From positions 6,906-70,905 of the IMG/VR virus record IMGVR_UViG_3300011113_000652: DNA of 64,000 nt. One strand, given 5' to 3'. The position numbers were made by a program, and so were the translations under genes. The notes below the pieces were generated by a model. It was not told the origin of the DNA. It did not search any database and saw only the letters and a list, made by a program, of their open reading frames with translations. Shown piece by piece: positions 5,763 to 17,577 of this stretch. Origin of the DNA: a virus. How positions within the stretch are numbered: the stretch's first letter is position 1; each line of letters begins with the position of its first letter.

Positions 5763-6770
5763 ATGCGGTATGTGCTGATTGACACAGCAAACATGTTCTT
5801 CCGTGCTCGACACGGTGCTTTTAGAGCCAGTGATACCTGGGAAAAAGTGGGCTTTGCCCTGCACGTCACGCTGATGGCTGCCAACAAAATGGCCCGGCGC
5901 TTTGAAGCTGATCACATGGTGTTTGCCCTGGAAGGACGATCGTGGCGCAAGGACATGTACAAACCCTACAAAAATAACCGTGCCGTAGCCCGTCAAGCAC
6001 TCACAGAGGCGGAAGTCGAAGAAGACAAAATGTTCTGGGAAACCTATGATGCTTTGACTAAATACTTGAGTGAGAAAACCAACTGTAGCGTGATTCGTTG
6101 TGCTACAGCCGAAGGCGACGACGTCATAGCTCGCTGGATCGCACTACATCCCCAAGACGAACATGTCATAGTCAGCAGTGACACTGACTTTGTTCAGTTG
6201 GTAGCACCCAACGTCAAACAGTACAACGGAATCACCGACGAGTTAATTACAGTAGAAGGAATCTTTGATGCCAAAGGCAAAGCGGTTATCGATAAGAAAA
6301 CTAAAGAACCTAAGTCAACGCCGAACCCCCAATGGCTACTCTTTGAAAAGTGTATGCGAGGAGATAGCTCGGATAATGTCTTCTCAGCGTATCCCGGTGT
6401 CAGAACTAAGGGCACTAAGAACAAAGTTGGACTCCAGGAAGCGTTTGAAGACAAAGACAAAAAAGGTTACAACTGGAACAACATGATGTTGCAACGCTGG
6501 ATGGATCCAGATGGTGTGGAACATCGTGTGTTGGACGACTATGAACGCAACAGAACCTTGATCGATCTCACAGCTCAACCCGAAGACATCAAGGCCACTG
6601 TGGATGCGGCCATACGTGAACAGATCAGCCACAAGGATGTGGGCCAAGTGGGTGTGAGATTCATGCAGTTCTGTGGCAAATATGAACTAAACAAATGTTC
6701 GGAATCAGCCGACAGCTTTGGTCGCTGGATGAATCAAACCTACAAAGGAGTATTGAATGCTAGTAGCTAA
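5763..6770 (+). CDS. rnh: T4-type RNase H / 5'-3' exonuclease
   Basis: LIDTAN, SWRK, YKxNR, EGDD, SSDTDFVQL, GDSSDNV. Confidence 0.88.
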   Translation: MRYVLIDTANMFFRARHGAFRASDTWEKVGFALHVTLMAANKMARRFEADHMVFALEGRSWRKDMYKPYKNNRAVARQALTEAEVEEDKMFWETYDALTKYLSEKTNCSVIRCATAEGDDVIARWIALHPQDEHVIVSSDTDFVQLVAPNVKQYNGITDELITVEGIFDAKGKAVIDKKTKEPKSTPNPQWLLFEKCMRGDSSDNVFSAYPGVRTKGTKNKVGLQEAFEDKDKKGYNWNNMMLQRWMDPDGVEHRVLDDYERNRTLIDLTAQPEDIKATVDAAIREQISHKDVGQVGVRFMQFCGKYELNKCSESADSFGRWMNQTYKGVLNASS

Positions 6771-7221
6771 ACCCGTGATAGACAAACAGTTTTGGATCTT
6801 GCAAGAAAACGATCGCAAGGTCGGCAATGTGGAAGCCTGTGCCGGAGGATATCAAGTTCGGCTCAACAATCAAGTGGCGCAATTTAAAACTATTAAGATG
6901 GCAGCTCAACGAATCAACATACAGTTTGAATCTGCTGTAAAATTATCCAAACCCAAATCCAACATGGACCAGGTGCATGGATATCCAGTCAGCGGTCGAG
7001 TTTACAATCCCATGTGGGATGTCACTCAGCAGTTGCCAGTGTATACCAAGACAGCCAAAAGCAAGAGTTGGTTTGCCGCTGGATGGTATCGTGTGCGCCG
7101 AGGTCGTACATGGACCACGATGTTGGCACCCAAGTTGATCATGCTACAACGATATGCACACGCAGGACCATTCTTGACCCAGGAGGCAGCCGATGACCAT
7201 GCACATACACAAATTCGTTGA
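6757..7221 (+). CDS. hypothetical phage protein
   Basis: AGGAG RBS; overlaps the rnh stop. Confidence 0.7.
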   Translation: MLVAKPVIDKQFWILQENDRKVGNVEACAGGYQVRLNNQVAQFKTIKMAAQRINIQFESAVKLSKPKSNMDQVHGYPVSGRVYNPMWDVTQQLPVYTKTAKSKSWFAAGWYRVRRGRTWTTMLAPKLIMLQRYAHAGPFLTQEAADDHAHTQIR

Positions 7222-10524: not shown

Positions 10525-10632
10525 ATGAATAAAATACAAGTTTTTACTTTAAGCACAGGACTCGTGGTCATGTGGCTCTTATACCGCTTCAGTCTGGAGG
10601 TATGGTGCTGGGCCTATGGAGTATTGTATTAG
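10525..10632 (+). CDS. 35-aa hydrophobic microprotein
   Basis: MNKIQVFTLSTGLVVMWLLYRFSLEVWCWAYGVLY; AGGA upstream. Confidence 0.5.
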   Translation: MNKIQVFTLSTGLVVMWLLYRFSLEVWCWAYGVLY

Positions 10633-10633
10633 G

Positions 10634-10662
10634 TTGACCAATAAATAACATTAAGTTATAAT
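10634..10662 (+). promoter_or_regulatory. sigma70-type promoter for the tmRNA
   Basis: TTGACC-17nt-TATAAT. Confidence 0.8.
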
Positions 10663-10668
10663 TTAAGA

Positions 10669-10920
10669 ATTGTTGTACATCCTTCCAAGTGAAGGCACTG
10701 TGGACCCGGGTTCGACCCCCGGATGCTCCACCTAAGTGTATAAGGTATATTTAGGTGGGGCATTATTTGGATTCGACATGGTGAGCTAGTGCGGACGGCA
10801 ACACAGTAGGCGATGACTGTAAATCAAGCAACTTTATTAAATGCAAACGCATCTAATGACGAGGTTTTTGCCTTAGCGGCATGATCTCCGGGGCAACTAT
10901 GCCTTGTCACCCAAACTAGT
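10669..10920 (+). ncRNA. ssrA: circularly permuted (two-piece) tmRNA
   Basis: T-arm CCGGG-TTCGACC-CCCGG and ATGCTCC-A-CC (10706-10732) precede the GGGGCAT..GGATTCGAC 5' piece (10757); G3:U70 pair; tag ANASNDEVFALAA* at 10843-10884; outer ends approximate. Confidence 0.92.
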
Positions 10921-10922
10921 CT

Positions 10923-10949
10923 AAAAAGCCTGAGAAATCAGGCTTTTTT
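10923..10949 (+). terminator. intrinsic terminator
   Basis: AAAAAGCCTGA-GAAA-TCAGGCTTTTTT. Confidence 0.85.
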
Positions 10950-11026
10950 GTTGGCCGCTAAGTAAAAACCACTAAATAAAGAGTTGGGTGATCGCCCAGC
11001 ATTCTTTTAAAAGGAAAATCTCAAGC

Positions 11027-12672: not shown

Positions 12673-13175
12673 AGGCCATGGTCATGGTGGCACACCCAGA
12701 TGATTGTGTGATATTTGCCTACAGTTTCATACACAATCGGCCAGAATATTCCTGGACCATATGTTATCTAACCTATCGTGCCACGGACCCGCGTGGGCAT
12801 GAATTGGCACAGTTTTGGCAACGCAGAAACATCTCTACCAAATTTTTAGGCTATCGAGATGATTGGCACGACATAGAAAACAAAAAAATCAGTTTTGATG
12901 AACAATCGGCCAGGTACGATATTCAGCAGGCCATGGCCGATCAGGATCTAGTGTTGACACACAATGAACATGGTGATTATGGTCACCTACATCATGTGTT
13001 TGTACATGAATCCACAAAAAATCATCCGCATCGTGTAACTTTTGCTGGACCAGGACAAGGTACTATTAAATATGTTTTACCCTCAAATGCTTACAGCTTG
13101 GACGAATTACCTTTGCATCGTGACGTGGTGGAATCTTTCCATCCCAAAATCCACGTGAACGAATACACATTATGA
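12669..13175 (+). CDS. PIG-L family deacetylase
   Basis: VAHPDD, THNEHGDYGHLHH. Confidence 0.8.
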   Translation: MKAMVMVAHPDDCVIFAYSFIHNRPEYSWTICYLTYRATDPRGHELAQFWQRRNISTKFLGYRDDWHDIENKKISFDEQSARYDIQQAMADQDLVLTHNEHGDYGHLHHVFVHESTKNHPHRVTFAGPGQGTIKYVLPSNAYSLDELPLHRDVVESFHPKIHVNEYTL

Positions 13176-14008
13176 AAAAGAAATTAATGATAGCCGGGTG
13201 TAGTTTTAGTGCAACTTGCGTGACTCCAGACGGTACCAGCTGGAGTGAACAACTGGCCAACATGTTGGATTGGGATCTTGTAAACCTGGCCCGGCAAGGT
13301 TGCTCCAATGGTGGTGTGAGATTGCAGATCGAAGAGATACGCAGGCAACGTCCGGATTTTGCCATAATCACACCCACCTTCTGGGATCGCATGGAGATCC
13401 CAGCACGAGCAGCTCCATATGATTGGAGTCAGTCATCTGGTGGTTGGAGCCCTGCTTTGCAACAACATTTGCAGGATAGGAATGTGGAAAACGGCTATGA
13501 TCGAAGTGCTGGCATTAACAATGTCAACTATGGCAACAACAATTACAGGATGATCTGTGAAACTATTTTTAGCATGACCGAAAACTATGATCATCCTTAT
13601 AGATCTGGAAAAATAGACAAAATCACGCAACAGGCATTGAAATATTACATCGACAGCCTGTATGACAGCAACTGGAAAAAACAACAGGACGAGTGGATAA
13701 TCAAAGAAGGTATCCTGCAACTGTATTTTGATGGAATACCGTTCATAGTCAGCCCAGATTTGTTGTGGCCGTTTGATCCCGAAGATAGCGAACAGTGGAG
13801 TCGGATTTTTCCTTCAATCTTGCCGGACCGGTATGTGCTACAAGACTGCGCAGAAAGTGTTTTGTCTATAAGTGGAAGCTACCCATTTCAAGGCAACGAT
13901 CCTGGTTATCATATGAATGTACAAGGACAAACCGTGGTGGCCAACAATCTTTTGGCCAGGATGCAACGAGATTTTGGAATACACCCAACACCGGTTGACA
14001 CAGTATAA
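13172..14008 (+). CDS. SGNH/GDSL-like hydrolase-fold protein
   Basis: AGCSFS, NLARQGCSN, DPGYH. Confidence 0.7.
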   Translation: MKKKLMIAGCSFSATCVTPDGTSWSEQLANMLDWDLVNLARQGCSNGGVRLQIEEIRRQRPDFAIITPTFWDRMEIPARAAPYDWSQSSGGWSPALQQHLQDRNVENGYDRSAGINNVNYGNNNYRMICETIFSMTENYDHPYRSGKIDKITQQALKYYIDSLYDSNWKKQQDEWIIKEGILQLYFDGIPFIVSPDLLWPFDPEDSEQWSRIFPSILPDRYVLQDCAESVLSISGSYPFQGNDPGYHMNVQGQTVVANNLLARMQRDFGIHPTPVDTV

Positions 14009-14023
14009 ATAAACCTATATAAT
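13995..14023 (+). promoter_or_regulatory. sigma70-type promoter with TATAAATA embedded in the spacer
   Basis: TTGACA-17nt-TATAAT; TATAAATA at 14004-14011; ATG at the expected +1 (14030). Confidence 0.82.
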
Positions 14024-14029
14024 ACTATT

Positions 14030-14131
14030 ATGTTGAATCGCAAAGTGATCTATCTTGTGCCACAACCCAATTTCTTAGGGAGTGCAAATCTATGGCTCAT
14101 TTGTGAGGATAAAATTCAGGGTAGCGAATAG
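14030..14131 (+). CDS. putative attenuator leader peptide (33 aa, leaderless)
   Basis: MLNRKVIYLVPQPNFLGSANLWLICEDKIQGSE; its 3' end overlaps the antiterminator strand. Confidence 0.7.
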   Translation: MLNRKVIYLVPQPNFLGSANLWLICEDKIQGSE

Positions 14132-14185
14132 CGTTATTTTAAACTGCATATTCAAACCCTGGAACTAACAACTCCGGGGTTTTTT
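14115..14185 (+). terminator. attenuator: mutually exclusive antiterminator and terminator
   Basis: terminator AAACCCTGGA/TCCGGGGTTT plus T-tract (14154-14185); TTCAGGGT..GAATAGC (14115-14132) can instead pair with GCATATTC..ACCCTGGA (14146-14163). Confidence 0.75.
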
Positions 14186-14206
14186 ATTTTATAGAAAAAG
14201 GAAAAG

Positions 14207-14380
14207 ATGTCGATTGATTATACAAAATTAAACGATCAGATTGTGAAACAGGCTTGGGACTACCACACAGCTTTTTTGAACGAAGCACAGGTTCGCAAGC
14301 TGTTCCAGAACAAGATCGATCGTGCGGCCGCTATGATCCGGGCGCAGGAACAATTTAAGCGATTGAATCAAGAAGATTAA
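14207..14380 (+). CDS. 57-aa hypothetical protein, first gene after the attenuator
   Basis: AAGGA RBS; MSIDYTKLNDQIVKQAWDY..LNQED. Confidence 0.65.
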   Translation: MSIDYTKLNDQIVKQAWDYHTAFLNEAQVRKLFQNKIDRAAAMIRAQEQFKRLNQED

Positions 14381-14384
14381 TCGC

Positions 14385-14490
14385 TAAAGTGGTTACAGGC
14401 AACGAGGGCCTGTGTCGCACTATAACCGACACAAACGGGCGGACTATCGGATGAAACTCCTTTTGTGGGGCGAAAAATGATAGCGTGTTT
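14385..14490 (+). ncRNA. candidate structured RNA
   Basis: TGTGTCG/CGACACA, CTATCG/TGATAG, CTCC/GGGG and AAACG/TGTTT stems in an intergenic gap. Confidence 0.4.
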
Positions 14491-14509
14491 TACAAACTGT
14501 AAATATGAC

Positions 14510-15286
14510 ATGACACAAAAATTCATATGGTGTGGAAGCAGTTGGGAAACCGGTGACGAACTTGAGTCACAGATATCCAAAAACCAGGTATGCCAACATG
14601 TATATCCAAGTTTGGTCAGTGCATGGTTTGCTGTTGAATGTGTAAACGTCAGCGAGAATCATAGTGCTATACCGCAATTGATTTGGCAACTAAAGTCAAT
14701 AGAAAATCAAATCTGTTCCGGTGACACAGTGTTTTTTTCCTTGCCGCCACCGCATTGGAGCATGTCGGTCGACCATACAGGTGCTGTAAACAGAATTGGC
14801 CCTAATTTCCACTGTGATCCACGTGTCCATGCCAACAGTCAGCACTGGTATCGCTATTTCGATAACAAATATCAAAGAGCCTGGCAAAATGATATCAGTA
14901 TAGAATTTTTATCCAATTGGTGTCAGGTGCGTGGAGTGCATTGTTATTTTTATTCACAGGTCAATCACTATTATTCCATATATCTAAACGCAACTGTGAG
15001 TTGGCTACTGCCGCCATCGACATGCCTGGCGGAATTATTAGTTCCTGTCATTGACAACACGTTTTTCGAAATAGTAAACTCCGACCGTAGTTGGTTAACC
15101 GAATCGCAATGGCAAACACAAAAACCACTGATAGAAAAATACATTGCCCCCTGTTACTCCCATCCCAATTTGGCCGGGCACAAAAAAATTGCCAAAGAAT
15201 TCATACGTTTGTTGTCTAAAAACTATAAATCAAAAGAACAATCGCGGGATAGAGAAACGGCATCTCGAGAGTCTCATAAGCTCTAG
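14510..15286 (+). CDS. SGNH/GDSL-like hydrolase-fold protein
   Basis: CGSSWETG, SHPNLAGH; similar to 55444-56166; C-terminus runs into tRNA-fMet. Confidence 0.65.
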   Translation: MTQKFIWCGSSWETGDELESQISKNQVCQHVYPSLVSAWFAVECVNVSENHSAIPQLIWQLKSIENQICSGDTVFFSLPPPHWSMSVDHTGAVNRIGPNFHCDPRVHANSQHWYRYFDNKYQRAWQNDISIEFLSNWCQVRGVHCYFYSQVNHYYSIYLNATVSWLLPPSTCLAELLVPVIDNTFFEIVNSDRSWLTESQWQTQKPLIEKYIAPCYSHPNLAGHKKIAKEFIRLLSKNYKSKEQSRDRETASRESHKL

Positions 15287-15316
15287 TTCCTGGTTCGATT
15301 CCAGGTCCCGCAACCA
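15243..15316 (+). tRNA. initiator-like tRNA-fMet(CAT)
   Basis: C1xA72 mismatch, A11-U24, CGCGGGA/TCCCGCA acceptor, CCA encoded. Confidence 0.88.
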
Positions 15317-15332
15317 ATTATGATCTAGCTGT

Positions 15333-15410
15333 AGTGAGGTGGCAGAGTGGCCCAATGCAAGGGACTGCAAATCCCTAAAGCCGTGAGTTCGAATCTCACC
15401 CTCACTTCCA
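15333..15410 (+). tRNA. tRNA-Cys(GCA)
   Basis: AGTGAGG/CCTCACT, AGGGA-CTGCAAA-TCCCT, U73, CCA. Confidence 0.92.
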
Positions 15411-15416
15411 AGTTTG

Positions 15417-15490
15417 GTCGGTCTGGTATAATGGCATTACAGCGGTCTCCAAAACCGTTAATTGGGGTTCGATTCCCTAGACCGGCGCCA
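15417..15490 (+). tRNA. tRNA-Trp(CCA)
   Basis: GTCGGTC/GACCGGC, GCGGT-CTCCAAA-ACCGT, G73, CCA. Confidence 0.92.
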
Positions 15491-15492
15491 AA

Positions 15493-15521
15493 TTGACCAG
15501 AAATGGACAATGTATTAAACT
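15493..15521 (+). promoter_or_regulatory. sigma70-type promoter
   Basis: TTGACC-17nt-TAAACT. Confidence 0.6.
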
Positions 15522-15551
15522 GTAGTATCAACTCAAAGAAAGGAGGCACGT

Positions 15552-16154
15552 ATGCCAGCAGTATTTTTAGTATCGGACACGCACTTTGGTCACGCTGGTG
15601 TATGTCGCTTTGTCCGTAACGATGGTGTGACAAAATTGCGTCCGTGGACTGATCCTGACGAAATGGATGAAGCCATGGTCAAAGCCTGGAATGAACGGGT
15701 CCGGCCCACAGACAAGGTCTATCACTTGGGTGATGTTGTGATCAACCGCAAGAGTTTACCTATCATGAATAGACTCAATGGCGACAAGGTTCTTATCCGT
15801 GGTAATCACGATATCTTCAAGGATGAGGACTACACACCTTACTTTCGTAGCCTGCGTGGATACCATGTGATGAACGGTATGATTTTGAGTCACATTCCTG
15901 TTCATGCCGAAAGCCTGGGCCGTTTTGGTGTCAACATACACGGACACTTGCATGCCAACCGGGTAAAGCGGGCCCGTGGCGTTGACGCCCGCACAGGAGA
16001 AGTTTTGTACAGCGATGAAAATGATGTGCGTTATCACTGTGTTTGTGTGGAGCAAACCGATTTTGCACCCATCCTGTTTGAAGATGTGATCAAGCGCATC
16101 ACAGCAGAAGGTGGCAAAATTGGTTTACAAAACGGCAACGGTACCATACTATAA
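15552..16154 (+). CDS. calcineurin-like metallophosphoesterase
   Basis: SDTHFGH, HLGD, RGNHD, SHIP, HGHLH; AGGAGG RBS. Confidence 0.88.
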   Translation: MPAVFLVSDTHFGHAGVCRFVRNDGVTKLRPWTDPDEMDEAMVKAWNERVRPTDKVYHLGDVVINRKSLPIMNRLNGDKVLIRGNHDIFKDEDYTPYFRSLRGYHVMNGMILSHIPVHAESLGRFGVNIHGHLHANRVKRARGVDARTGEVLYSDENDVRYHCVCVEQTDFAPILFEDVIKRITAEGGKIGLQNGNGTIL

Positions 16155-16196
16155 ATATTCCTACCTTGCCTGTATGCCACCAATTGGAGATTGCCG

Positions 16197-17183
16197 ATGC
16201 GAATTCTAGACCAAAATTTTGAAGGCGTGAAAGAGTTAGATCATGCTATTGCCAAAGATTTAGCACAGTATTTTGATTTTGACTTTGTAACAAAAAATAT
16301 CAATGACTACCAACTTTGGTTTAATAATCTGAAAAAAATAGCGTTTCAAAATTTGGGTCTGGCTCATTCTGTGTTGCATAATCAAACTGCACATAATTGT
16401 GTGGAAATTGCATTCAATGAAACTGCACTACCGGAATTTGATCGTTCCTACAGTCAGAACATTGCTGGGCACAGCTTTCTGACTTTGTCTTCGAAATCCA
16501 AACACGATTCGATCAAATTCGATGGTAAACAATTGTCTGGAACAAAATATTGGATATCAAATGCCAAGGCAGCAGATTTTGTGGTGATGGCCTGTTTAAA
16601 TTCTATCAGTAAAGTAAAAAAAATACACTACATTTTTATTGATCTAAAACTTGTAGAGCACAAAATCACCGGCGACGAATATCAACCACTTGGTATGAAT
16701 GTGGCAACTCCTTTCAATCTTGAACTAGATATTGACGTTCCAGAGCACTGGATTATTACCAATGATCACAATCGTGACGACTTTTACCTGGCATCATATT
16801 TTCATAACTATGGTTTAATCTGCAATTATATTTCCTGCGCAAAAAAATTGTTGGCATTATGCAGGTCTCAAAATTATGATGTTGGTTATGAATTAGACAA
16901 ACTAGAACTCAATTTAAAAATTTCAGAAACTTTGTTTGAACAAAGCATTGAAAAACTGTTTGATAAAAATACCAAGACAAAATTTTACTTTTTCAACAAT
17001 CAATATCAATTTGCAAGGAAAAATTTAATAGATGTCACAAAATTTTTTATTGAACTCGGTAGTTCATCCTTGTTGGATTCTAAATCACCTGCATCGCAGG
17101 TGGTGCGAGACAGTTTAATGATGACCTCACATTTGGTAAATCTTTACAATCACATGAATAATGCCATTACAAGATTTTTCTGA
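16197..17183 (+). CDS. acyl-CoA dehydrogenase-like flavoprotein (divergent)
   Basis: LSGTKYWISNA, PLGM, helical C-terminus ending VVRDS; TATAAATA at 16150. Confidence 0.6.
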   Translation: MRILDQNFEGVKELDHAIAKDLAQYFDFDFVTKNINDYQLWFNNLKKIAFQNLGLAHSVLHNQTAHNCVEIAFNETALPEFDRSYSQNIAGHSFLTLSSKSKHDSIKFDGKQLSGTKYWISNAKAADFVVMACLNSISKVKKIHYIFIDLKLVEHKITGDEYQPLGMNVATPFNLELDIDVPEHWIITNDHNRDDFYLASYFHNYGLICNYISCAKKLLALCRSQNYDVGYELDKLELNLKISETLFEQSIEKLFDKNTKTKFYFFNNQYQFARKNLIDVTKFFIELGSSSLLDSKSPASQVVRDSLMMTSHLVNLYNHMNNAITRFF

Positions 17184-17228: not shown

Positions 17229-17305
17229 ACCCCGGTGGCGCAACTGGTAGACGCACTCTCCTCAGAAGGGAGCTGTTGAAGGTTCGAATCCTTCCCGGGG
17301 CACCA
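17229..17305 (+). tRNA. tRNA-Leu(CAG) with short variable loop
   Basis: Leu-type D arm GCGCAACTGGTAGACGC, CTCTC-CTCAGAA-GGGAG, A73, CCA; A1xC72 mismatch. Confidence 0.82.
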
Positions 17306-17334
17306 TTGACATCAGCAGTATTTTGTAGTATAAT
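17306..17334 (+). promoter_or_regulatory. sigma70-type promoter
   Basis: TTGACA-17nt-TATAAT. Confidence 0.82.
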
Positions 17335-17355
17335 TGTTGTTTACAAGGAGAAATC

Positions 17356-17577
17356 ATGAGTGTAAGAATCGAAAGTCGTAGTGGCGAAATTGATACCGAA
17401 CGCTGTGTTGAACATGCCGGGGGTCGTTATGACCTTGTGATTGCTGCTGCACAACGCTTGAGAGAAATGAAGCGCCGTGCCCGCGAAACCAACTCCTGGG
17501 TCACACCCATTGATGCACTTAAAGAGGTACAGAGTGGAACTTTTAACATGACTGATTATTTGGTAAAGGTAAAATAA
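17356..17577 (+). CDS. rpoZ: RNA polymerase omega subunit homologue
   Basis: GGRYDLVIAAAQRLRE and TPIDALKEVQSG parallel omega GNRFDLVLVAARRARQ and TTVIALREIEEG; AGGAG RBS. Confidence 0.75.
   Translation: MSVRIESRSGEIDTERCVEHAGGRYDLVIAAAQRLREMKRRARETNSWVTPIDALKEVQSGTFNMTDYLVKVK

What the first reader, a model, noticed from the sequence alone, without database searches (positions are those of the whole stretch)
13995..15490. Codon-diverse leader-peptide attenuator upstream of phage tRNA genes: a candidate general translation-stress sensor
Seen: a consensus TTGACA-17-TATAAT promoter puts +1 at or next to the ATG of a 33-codon ORF (MLNRKVIYLVPQPNFLGSANLWLICEDKIQGSE). It uses 18 of 20 amino acids (no His or Thr) and 28 distinct codons, including five different Leu codons once each and both Gln and both Glu codons. 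Its last codons (14115-14132) are complementary to 14146-14163, the 5' arm of a strong terminator (14154-14185). Downstream lie a 57-aa ORF, a structured RNA, an SGNH-like gene and tRNA-fMet, -Cys and -Trp, with no other obvious terminator before the tRNAs. Known: trp/his-type attenuators have this geometry but use runs of one amino acid. Inference: a ribosome reaching the stop masks the antiterminator and transcription stops; a stall at any of roughly the first 24 codons, or failed leaderless initiation, frees it. The phage would then make replacement tRNAs whenever host tRNAs are cleaved or uncharged, e.g. by anticodon-nuclease defences. Caveats: about 26 distinct codons are expected by chance under uniform usage, so the geometry is the stronger evidence; a TAAATA motif at 14500 could express the tRNAs independently late in infection.
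Basis: partly seen in the sequence, partly recalled or inferred. Interest (0 to 1): 0.9.

Follow-up and report, generated by a model that had tools for sequence, protein, structure and literature searches.

The report
Leader-peptide attenuator gating phage tRNA genes
A giant freshwater phage puts a tiny translated gene and a stop/go RNA switch between a strong promoter and its own tRNA genes, and in related phages that tiny gene spells out all 20 amino acids, so it probably raises tRNA production whenever ribosomes decode slowly.

Summary
At 13995-14190 there is a 12/12 sigma70-type promoter, an ATG 6 nt after the -10 box, a 33-codon ORF, a hairpin over the stop codon and a 9-bp terminator. 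The ORF segment 14115-14122 can pair with the terminator 5' arm 14156-14163.

The unit is conserved. A promoter-pattern scan of IMG/VR gave 84 distinct downstream segments, and 66 are the same module: short ORF, stop 22-32 nt before a terminator. In 66 of 66 the nascent RNA pairs the terminator 5' arm with the ORF end. Cognate hairpin halves fit 6.4 kcal/mol better than swapped ones (0 of 5000 permutations).

The ORF shows a coding signature. Of 41 leader peptides of 38 aa or more, 35 contain all 20 amino acids (null 0.6-5%). None of 31 neighbouring p57 proteins does.

A 51-60-aa protein gene, a conserved structured RNA and the tRNA array follow on the same strand. In four complete genomes 5/6, 27/28, 26/27 and 30/30 tRNA genes lie downstream.

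Best reading: a ribosome-dependent transcription attenuator sensing overall decoding. The window's copy is a shortened one, with 18 of 20 amino acids and few tRNAs. No expression data exist.

Earlier notes of this scan describe the same class on other DNA. I found no publication.

The parts
13993..14023 (+). Promoter GGTTGAC-N4-TATAAATA-N6-TATAAT. The -35 box is 13995-14000 and the -10 box 14018-14023. The spacer motif TATAAATA at 14004-14011 is conserved.
   Evidence: 12 of 12 consensus match. The exact 31-nt pattern recurs in 102 IMG/VR stretches. The spacer motif is conserved in all 14 aligned homologues.
14030..14131 (+). Leader ORF of 33 codons, with its ATG at the predicted +1 (leaderless) and stop TAG at 14129-14131.
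   Evidence: ORF listed. A length of 32-34 codons and the stop position are kept in 20 orthologues. Synonymous differences make up 33% in frame, against 17% and 11.5% in the other two frames.
14115..14122 (+). Antiterminator 5' strand (UUCAGGGU), inside codons 29-31 of the leader.
   Evidence: Pairs with 14156-14163 in the fold of the truncated transcript. 90.4% of cells are paired over 20 orthologues, against 17-56% when slid. It is kept at the RNA level in L028 and L103 despite a 1-nt frame shift.
14126..14153 (+). Hairpin H2 over the stop codon (GAAUA 14126-14130 with UAUUC 14149-14153, plus variable inner pairs). It forms the core of the antiterminator.
   Evidence: Present in both folds. 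It appears in the consensus fold of the alignment. The four A-U/U-A pairs are kept in 19-20 of 20 sequences.
14155..14190 (+). Intrinsic terminator: 5' arm 14155-14163, loop 14164-14172, 3' arm 14173-14181, U-tract 14180-14190.
   Evidence: -12.8 kcal/mol. 96.1% of cells are paired, with two compensatory pairs. It sits 22-32 nt after the stop in the 53 leaderless modules.
14207..14380 (+). p57, a 57-aa protein. It is the first gene after the terminator, with AGGA-type ribosome-binding sequence at about 14199-14202.
   Evidence: A p57-family ORF starts 13-48 nt after the start of the U-tract in 43 of 51 modules that have more than 100 nt of downstream sequence. It is predicted as a two-helix hairpin, pLDDT 83.6. 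No Pfam, PHROG, PDB or Atlas match.
14385..14505 (+). Conserved structured RNA, with an invariant AACGAGG loop, invariant AACGGGCGG and a long hairpin with a purine-rich internal loop.
   Evidence: 42 distinct copies in the fetched loci, all after p57 or directly after the terminator. 12 of 13 predicted pairs show compensatory changes. No Rfam match.
14510..15286 (+). It is a local insertion between p57 and the tRNAs.
   Evidence: No Pfam or PHROG hit. No match downstream of any of the other modules, where tRNAs or the phosphoesterase gene follow p57 instead.
15243..15490 (+). tRNA-Met(CAT) 15243-15316, tRNA-Cys(GCA) 15333-15410, tRNA-Trp(CCA) 15417-15490.
   Evidence: ARAGORN and Rfam. The same strand carries further tRNAs at 17229, 17748 and 18101.

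Best explanation
This is a ribosome-dependent (leader-peptide) transcription attenuator at the head of the phage's tRNA operon.

Proposed sequence of events:
- Host RNA polymerase starts at or next to the ATG at 14030.
- As the transcript grows, hairpin H2 forms over the stop codon. The ORF segment 14115-14122 then pairs with 14156-14163, which extends H2 into an antiterminator. In that state polymerase reads through into p57, the structured RNA and the tRNA genes.
- If instead a ribosome has kept pace and sits on the last codons or the stop, it covers 14115-14145. Then 14156-14163 pairs with 14173-14181 and transcription ends at the U-tract.
- Efficient decoding of the leader therefore shuts the operon off. 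A ribosome that is late, absent or stalled upstream turns it on.

In related phages the leader holds every amino acid, usually with the rare ones once each. The unit therefore most likely reports shortage of any aminoacyl-tRNA and feeds back on tRNA supply. The window's 33-codon leader (18 of 20 amino acids) is a shortened version in a clade that keeps only about six tRNA genes.

Shown: the anatomy, its conservation, the coding signature, the amino-acid completeness and the synteny. Inferred: the transcription start, translation of the leader, which state the ribosome selects, and the natural trigger.
For: Anatomy in the window.

Conservation of the module:
- 84 distinct promoter-downstream segments were found.
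- 53 are leaderless modules and 13 carry a leader of about 42 nt.

Antiterminator:
- With the full 5' context, the terminator 5' arm pairs with the last 30 nt of the ORF in 53 of 53 modules. It does so in 13 of 13 of the leadered group.
- The energy gain beats 100 dinucleotide shuffles at P <= 0.05 in 47 of 53 modules.
- Cognate left and right halves fold to -21.0 kcal/mol against -14.6 for swapped halves, with 0 of 5000 permutations as low. For 18 representatives below 50% peptide identity, z = -8.3.
- In the 20 orthologues, 90.4% of cells are paired against 17-56% when slid, and 3 pairs change on both sides.
- In L086 the change CAGGG to CGAGG in the ORF is matched in both terminator arms.
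- The two states lie close in energy: median difference 4.4 kcal/mol, 4.1 in the window.

Coding:
- The synonymous share is 33% in frame, against 17% and 11.5% in the other frames.
- The ORF stays open at 27-50 codons in all modules.

All-amino-acid leaders:
- 35 of 66 peptides have all 20 amino acids, and 35 of the 41 that are 38 aa or longer.
- The null probability is 0.006-0.05 per peptide.
- 10 of 13 representatives have all 20, giving P about 2e-11 even at p = 0.05.
- Cys is present in 53 of 53 (expected 0.47 per peptide, mean 1.06 copies), at changing positions.
- Control: 0 of 31 p57 proteins of 51-60 aa have all 20.

Dependence of downstream genes:
- p57 starts 13-48 nt after the start of the U-tract, which leaves no room for a promoter of its own.
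- tRNAs lie on the same strand within 3.5 kb in 46 of 51 modules, and in several loci the first one starts about 10 nt after p57.
- In complete genomes 5/6, 27/28, 26/27 and 30/30 tRNA genes lie downstream of the module.
Against: - There are no RNA or ribosome data. No listed sequencing run is on record as RNA, so the start site, leader translation and termination are all unobserved.
- The window's own leader is not complete: 18 of 20 amino acids, P = 0.12 on its own.
- In the window about 1 kb (structured RNA plus an inserted gene) separates p57 from the tRNAs. A promoter-like site (TTGACA-18-TAAACT, 10 of 12) lies at 15051-15080, 160 nt before tRNA-Met. Further promoters precede later tRNAs. 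The attenuator therefore need not be their only control.
- The consensus fold of the 20 orthologues shows no conserved pause or anti-antiterminator hairpin (the trp 1:2 analogue). Synchrony of ribosome and polymerase is thus unexplained.
- Leaderless starts are often weak in proteobacteria (general knowledge), and the host is unknown.
- The Trp is nearly invariant at positions 16-26 (52 of the 53 leaderless peptides), and the N-terminal pattern is conserved. This suggests peptide-specific selection beyond mere presence of residues.
- In the full transcript the terminator state is the more stable one, so the model rests on folding kinetics. In 17 of 53 modules the full-length MFE lacks the terminator.
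Confidence: 0.7

Rival explanations
1. A stand-alone small-peptide gene. The promoter, the 33-codon ORF and the terminator form a complete transcription unit whose product acts as a free peptide. p57 and the tRNAs are then expressed by constitutive leakage through the terminator, and the alternative hairpin only tunes mRNA stability or translation termination.
For: The peptide is conserved: Trp is kept in 52 of the 53 leaderless peptides, with a shared N-terminal pattern and LWxICE in the orthologues. The terminated RNA would be a tidy transcript of about 155 nt. The terminator is in the full-length MFE in 36 of 53 modules.
Against: A free peptide gives no reason for the ORF end to stay complementary to the terminator 5' arm in 66 of 66 modules. 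It gives no reason for that segment to be kept at the RNA level across a frame shift in L028 and L103. It does not explain why peptides below 50% identity all keep one copy of each rare amino acid at shifting positions. p57 has no room for its own promoter.
Confidence: 0.1
2. A specific sensor rather than a general one. The nearly invariant Trp codon (or the nascent peptide around it, as in TnaC or SecM) makes the ribosome pause in response to Trp-tRNA or a small molecule. The other residues would be passengers.
For: Trp is present in 52 of the 53 leaderless peptides at positions 16-26. In the window it lies 11 residues before the last codon; I recall a similar Trp-to-P-site distance in TnaC and SecM, which I did not check here. 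A ribosome stalled at that codon would leave the antiterminator strand free, since the Trp codon lies 22-64 nt upstream of it. tRNA-Trp is common in the downstream arrays.
Against: The distance from Trp to the ORF end varies from 11 to 25 residues. A single codon is a weak starvation sensor. This reading does not explain why all 20 amino acids are kept or why Cys is present in 53 of 53 at changing positions. It could still hold in addition to the general reading.
Confidence: 0.1
3. An RNA-only element. The roughly 155-nt terminated transcript is a small regulatory RNA or a ligand- or tRNA-binding switch, and the open reading frame is incidental.
For: Several third-codon positions never vary: ATG TTG AAT CGC, CCA, CCC and CTA TGG. 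This points to added RNA-level constraint. The promoter-to-terminator geometry is that of a small RNA.
Against: The frame stays open for 27-50 codons, directly after the promoter in 53 modules and after a leader of about 42 nt in 13. Substitutions are biased to synonymous changes in that frame only. Amino-acid completeness is a property of the translation, not of the RNA. No Rfam family, T-box included, matches.
Confidence: 0.06

Closest known systems
Leader-peptide transcription attenuators of enterobacterial amino-acid operons (trpL, hisL, pheL; multivalent thrL and ilv leaders)
   Same: A short translated ORF lies between the promoter and the regulated genes. An intrinsic terminator has a 5' arm that can instead pair with a strand at the ORF end. 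The position of the ribosome would decide between the two states.
   Different: There is no run of one amino acid's codons. Instead the leader carries a near-complete or complete set of all 20, mostly one copy each of the rare ones. The regulated genes are tRNA genes, a small protein and a structured RNA in a phage, not biosynthetic enzymes. The start is leaderless. No conserved 1:2-type hairpin was found in the 20 orthologues. No Rfam leader family matches. The description of the known systems is from general knowledge.
Leaderless polycysteine short ORFs of mycobacteria (bioRxiv 10.1101/834739; abstract and outline read)
   Same: A leaderless short ORF is the first cistron of an operon, and ribosome pausing in it controls the downstream genes.
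   Different: [quoted passage not shown] Here there is a terminator/antiterminator pair and no tract of any one residue.
Anabaena sp. PCC 7120 trn operon: a long tRNA array induced by translational stress (PMC8421152 and PMC10272220; abstracts and outlines read)
   Same: A supernumerary tRNA gene array is kept low and raised when translation is impaired. This is the same physiological logic.
   Different: By those abstracts the control is a protein repressor (TrcR, ribbon-helix-helix) acting at the promoter in a cyanobacterial megaplasmid. It is not a cis-acting leader peptide with a terminator in a phage.
T-box riboswitches
   Same: Antiterminator/terminator choice that reports on tRNA status.
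   Different: T-boxes bind uncharged tRNA directly, have no translated ORF and control synthetase or amino-acid genes (general knowledge). No T-box match was found in the window.

Membership tests
Leader-peptide (ribosome-mediated) transcription attenuator, trp/his type | Short translated ORF between the promoter and the regulated genes | tested here: met
   The ORF is kept open at 27-50 codons in 66 modules. The synonymous share is 33% in frame, against 17% and 11.5% in the other frames. Translation itself was not observed.
Leader-peptide (ribosome-mediated) transcription attenuator, trp/his type | Intrinsic terminator between the leader ORF and the first regulated gene | tested here: met
   A 9-bp stem plus U-tract at 14155-14190, -12.8 kcal/mol. 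It lies 22-32 nt after the stop in 53 of 53 modules and 26-27 nt after it in 13 of 13 leadered modules.
Leader-peptide (ribosome-mediated) transcription attenuator, trp/his type | Antiterminator that excludes the terminator by using its 5' arm | tested here: met
   66 of 66 modules. The shuffle test gives P <= 0.05 in 47 of 53. In the swap test 0 of 5000 permutations did as well.
Leader-peptide (ribosome-mediated) transcription attenuator, trp/his type | Antiterminator 5' strand placed so that a ribosome finishing the leader blocks it | tested here: met
   The pairing partners lie -29 to -2 nt from the stop codon in 53 of 53 modules, and -14 to -7 in the window. This is geometry only.
Leader-peptide (ribosome-mediated) transcription attenuator, trp/his type | Cluster of codons for the amino acid whose supply is sensed | tested here: not met
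   No runs are present. The window leader uses 18 amino-acid types in 33 codons, and relatives use all 20.
Leader-peptide (ribosome-mediated) transcription attenuator, trp/his type | Upstream pause or anti-antiterminator hairpin (trp 1:2) | tested here: inconclusive
   The single-sequence MFE pairs the 5' end with 14113-14124. The consensus fold of 20 orthologues shows no conserved structure upstream of H2.
Leader-peptide (ribosome-mediated) transcription attenuator, trp/his type | Read-through changes with translation of the leader | not testable with these tools
   Needs in vitro coupled transcription-translation or reporters. No RNA run was available.
Rfam leader and T-box families (Trp_leader, His_leader, Thr_leader, T-box and the like) | Match to the family covariance model | tested here: not met
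   No match at gathering score in the whole window. None with E <= 5 in 13950-14560 apart from four chance-level sRNA and lncRNA hits over the terminator.

The most novel reading that the evidence does not exclude
The leader is a 'pangram' gauge: a peptide selected to contain every amino acid, so that shortage of any one charged tRNA stalls the ribosome and opens transcription of the phage's own tRNA array. That would be a closed feedback loop on decoding capacity. On this reading it also switches on p57 and the conserved structured RNA, which may form a further, unknown RNA-protein part of the same response. It would let the phage answer host tRNA depletion or cleavage without a protein sensor.
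Probability: 0.55. Interest if true: 0.9.

Novelty: new variant of a known kind. Interest (0 to 1): 0.85.

Why it matters
Leader-peptide attenuation is textbook biology, but as a sensor of one or a few amino acids that controls biosynthetic genes. Here the same machinery appears rebuilt as a sensor of decoding in general, and it controls tRNA genes themselves in a virus.

If this is true, large phages regulate their tRNA supply by demand rather than making tRNAs constitutively. That bears on two open questions: why phages carry tRNA arrays, and how they cope with host tRNA depletion or anticodon nucleases.

It also gives a simple, portable test object. A cassette of about 200 nt should respond to omission of any single amino acid in a cell-free system.

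My paper searches found no description of such a control. They found only a protein-repressor route to a stress-induced tRNA array in Anabaena.

Tried and rejected
- **RNA evidence.** The look-up of sequencing runs listed no holder on record as RNA (20 holders, all DNA or guessed, kept as contigs). I did not use read laying, because contigs cannot show starts or ends.
- **Known phages.** blastn of 13000-16200 against INPHARED found only tRNA-sized matches in 8 records.
- **First column-based pair counts.** Searches used a structure string that I had typed one column out of register (54% paired, with the +1 slide better). I rebuilt the string from the RNAfold output and repeated the count. The H2 rows are affected. 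The terminator rows are not.
- **Covariation by columns alone is modest.** The score is 0.157, reached by 30 of 500 shuffles. The orthologues vary little, and the second subgroup pairs in another register.
- **Late promoter.** The spacer motif TATAAATA resembles the T4 late promoter (recalled). It occurs only 3 times in the window, as expected by chance, so I make no claim. TTGAC-N4-TATAAATA with up to 2 mismatches gives 6 sites, of which only the one at 13995 is exact.
- **p57 function.** No Pfam or PHROG hit. The PDB profile search gave only E > 1. The Atlas gave no usable hit. AlphaFold gives a two-helix hairpin. I ran no fold search, because such a fold matches almost anything.
- **Copies per genome.** The promoter pattern with up to 2 mismatches found one copy in 3 of 5 complete genomes and none in 2. 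One of those two (G002, via L015) has a variant module behind a different promoter, with a 35-aa leader of 16 amino-acid types by my own reading of the printed sequence. I did not locate the module in G003.
- **Codon match to the phage tRNAs.** I considered testing whether leader codons match the phage's anticodons. I dropped it because sets of 27-30 tRNAs read nearly all codons.
- **Codon diversity over 18 representatives.** Mean z is +1.8. This supports the reading but is weaker than the amino-acid result.
- **Supplements.** Supplementary files of papers were not opened.


Full report
**What is in the window.** The window is part of a 70.9-kb IMG/VR virus record that CheckV rates about 20% complete. 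Its relatives are phage genomes of 337-353 kb with terminal repeats.

- At 13995-14023 lies a perfect TTGACA-17-TATAAT promoter.
- An ATG follows 6 nt after the -10 box, so the usual start point falls on or next to it.
- The ATG opens a 33-codon ORF, 14030-14131.
- The stop codon sits in the 5' arm of a hairpin, GAAUA 14126-14130 with UAUUC 14149-14153.
- Next comes a terminator: 14155-14163 with 14173-14181, a 9-nt loop and then U6AU4.
- When the terminator 3' arm is left out, the RNA folds into one long hairpin of -19.4 kcal/mol. In it 14115-14122, inside the last codons, pairs with 14156-14163.
- In the full transcript the terminator state is 4.1 kcal/mol lower.
On their own they are only marginally unusual.

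**Conservation in orthologues.** blastn against loci fetched through the two neighbouring genes found the same element, at 70-94% identity, directly upstream of the 57-aa gene.
- Twenty orthologues keep a 32-34-codon ORF and the stop position.
- In the 15 closest orthologues, differences are biased to synonymous changes in this frame only: 33%, against 17% and 11.5%.
- The antiterminator drawn from the window is paired in 90.4% of cells, against 17-56% when the partner is slid by 1-3 columns. Three pairs change on both sides.
- In L086 the ORF reads CGAGG instead of CAGGG, and both terminator arms carry the matching change.
- In L028 and L103 one extra base shifts the frame near the end. The RNA segments UUCAGGG and GAAUAG are nevertheless kept, and the stop moves by only 2 nt.

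The segment is therefore held by RNA pairing as well as by coding.

**A wider family.** The promoter has a conserved spacer, GGTTGAC-N4-TATAAATA-N6-TAYAAT.
- A scan of IMG/VR for this pattern gave 102 stretches, of which 80 were listed. Together with the loci already held, they yield 84 distinct downstream segments.
- 53 are modules with an ATG 6-11 nt after the -10 box, an ORF of 27-50 codons, and a terminator whose 5' arm starts 22-32 nt after the stop.
- 13 more have a 5' leader of about 42 nt before a 46-48-codon ORF of the same peptide family.
- The remaining 18 segments include the same promoter directly before tRNAs, before p57 without a leader, or before unrelated genes.
- In 66 of 66 modules the nascent RNA, folded from the assumed start to the end of the terminator 5' arm, pairs that arm with the last 30 nt of the ORF.
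- The energy gained beats 100 dinucleotide shuffles at P <= 0.05 in 47 of 53 modules.
- Swapping the left and right halves of the hairpin between modules costs 6.4 kcal/mol on average. None of 5000 permutations did as well as the true pairing. With 18 representatives below 50% peptide identity, z is -8.3.
- The two states differ by a median of 4.4 kcal/mol.

**The leaders spell out the amino-acid alphabet.**
- Of 66 distinct peptides, 35 contain all 20 amino acids and 44 contain at least 19.
- Among the 41 peptides of 38 aa or more, 35 are complete.
- Random windows of the same length from the window's own proteins are complete in 0.6% (38 aa) to 5% (50 aa) of draws.
- Counting one representative per subfamily, 10 of 13 are complete (P about 2e-11 even at p = 0.05).
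- None of 31 p57 proteins, which are longer, is complete.
- Cys is present in 53 of 53 leaderless peptides, at about one copy, against an expected presence of 0.47. Its position ranges from 17 residues before the conserved Trp to 14 after it.
- In L096 all 20 types occur within the first 31 codons, upstream of the zone where a stalled ribosome would cover the antiterminator strand.

This is selection for presence, not for position. It is what a gauge of all aminoacyl-tRNAs would need. The window's orthologue group (32-33 aa) holds 16-19 types.

**What lies downstream.**
- A p57-family ORF starts 13-48 nt after the start of the U-tract in 43 of the 51 modules with enough downstream sequence. 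It cannot have its own promoter there.
- A structured RNA with invariant AACGAGG and AACGGGCGG follows p57, or follows the terminator directly when p57 is missing. It has 42 distinct copies, and 12 of 13 predicted pairs show compensatory changes.
- tRNA genes follow on the same strand in 46 of 51 modules within the 3.5 kb examined. In several loci they begin about 10 nt after p57.
- In complete genomes the module heads the array: 5 of 6, 27 of 28 and 26 of 27 tRNA genes lie downstream. In G002 all 30 lie downstream of a variant module.
- The arrays of G004 and G005 cover all 20 amino acids.
- The window-like genome G001 has only 6 tRNAs and the short leader.
- In the window a gene with no family match (14510-15286) is inserted before tRNA-Met, -Cys and -Trp, and a promoter-like site lies inside it.

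**Mechanism.** The anatomy fits leader-peptide attenuation with one difference in logic from trp: without a ribosome the antiterminator forms first. A ribosome that reaches the last codons covers the 5' strand and H2, which leaves the terminator free to form. Fast decoding thus means stop, and slow, stalled or absent decoding means read-through. These steps are inferred. I found no conserved pause hairpin and no RNA data, and the host is unknown. A role for the conserved Trp or the nascent chain cannot be excluded.

**Comparison with what is known.**
- No Rfam family matches.
- Leaderless attenuating short ORFs are in print for mycobacteria, where they sense Cys and act on translation (abstract read).
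- A tRNA array induced by translational stress is in print for Anabaena, through the repressor TrcR (abstracts read).
- Six full-text searches listed no paper that, by title or abstract, describes a leader-peptide attenuator before tRNA genes or an all-amino-acid leader.
- Earlier notes of this same scan describe the same class on other phage DNA. I saw them after reaching the reading above, and they are not independent evidence.

**Verdict.** I class it as a new variant of a known kind.

Noticed in passing
window 14385-14505; for example L194:1891-2017 and L019:8183-8309: A conserved structured RNA of about 125 nt lies after p57, or directly after the terminator where p57 is missing. It has an invariant AACGAGG hairpin loop, an invariant AACGGGCGG, and then a long hairpin with a purine-rich internal loop (GGAUGA / AAAAAU). 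There are 42 distinct copies, and 12 of 13 predicted pairs show compensatory changes. No Rfam match.
   Followed up: partly
window 14207-14380: The p57 family (51-60 aa, core L-T/N-x-E...L-F/I-x-x-K-I/L-x-R-A) is the first gene after the attenuator in most relatives. It is predicted as a two-helix hairpin (pLDDT 83.6). No match in Pfam, PHROGs, PDB sequences or the Atlas.
   Followed up: partly
window 13993-14023; L111, L152, L174, L002: The whole 31-nt promoter, conserved spacer TATAAATA included, is reused in related phages directly before tRNA genes and, in L002, before p57 without any leader. The spacer motif is not enriched in the window.
   Followed up: partly
G001 against G002, G004 and G005 (complete relatives): The clade with the short 32-33-aa leader, to which the window belongs, has 6 tRNA genes in a complete genome. 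Genomes with 35-46-aa leaders have 27-30. Leader length and tRNA-set size may shrink together.
   Followed up: partly
window 14164-14172 and the same place in relatives: The 8-10-nt terminator loop (ACUAACAAC, ACUAAACAC, AUUAAAAC) is unusually large and is conserved in sequence across many modules.
   Followed up: no
L015 about 6460-6790 and L005 about 6470-6800: A variant module sits behind a different promoter. Read by eye, its leader has 35 aa with 16 amino-acid types and Trp near the end. It has the same kind of terminator and lies about 200 nt before the first of 30 tRNA genes in G002.
   Followed up: partly
window 10620-10975: A tmRNA gene scored both as the betaproteobacterial and as the permuted type, with tag ANASNDEVFALAA. 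It lies upstream of the attenuator, behind its own promoter-like site at 10634-10662.
   Followed up: no
window 17306-17577: A second perfect TTGACA-17-TATAAT promoter (17306-17334) precedes a 73-aa ORF (17356-17577). Not tested.
   Followed up: no
window 13172-14008 and 14510-15286: These two genes both begin with a G-C/D-S-type N-terminus. The first is conserved in 90 IMG/VR stretches. Neither has a Pfam or PHROG hit, so the 'SGNH-like' label is unverified.
   Followed up: no
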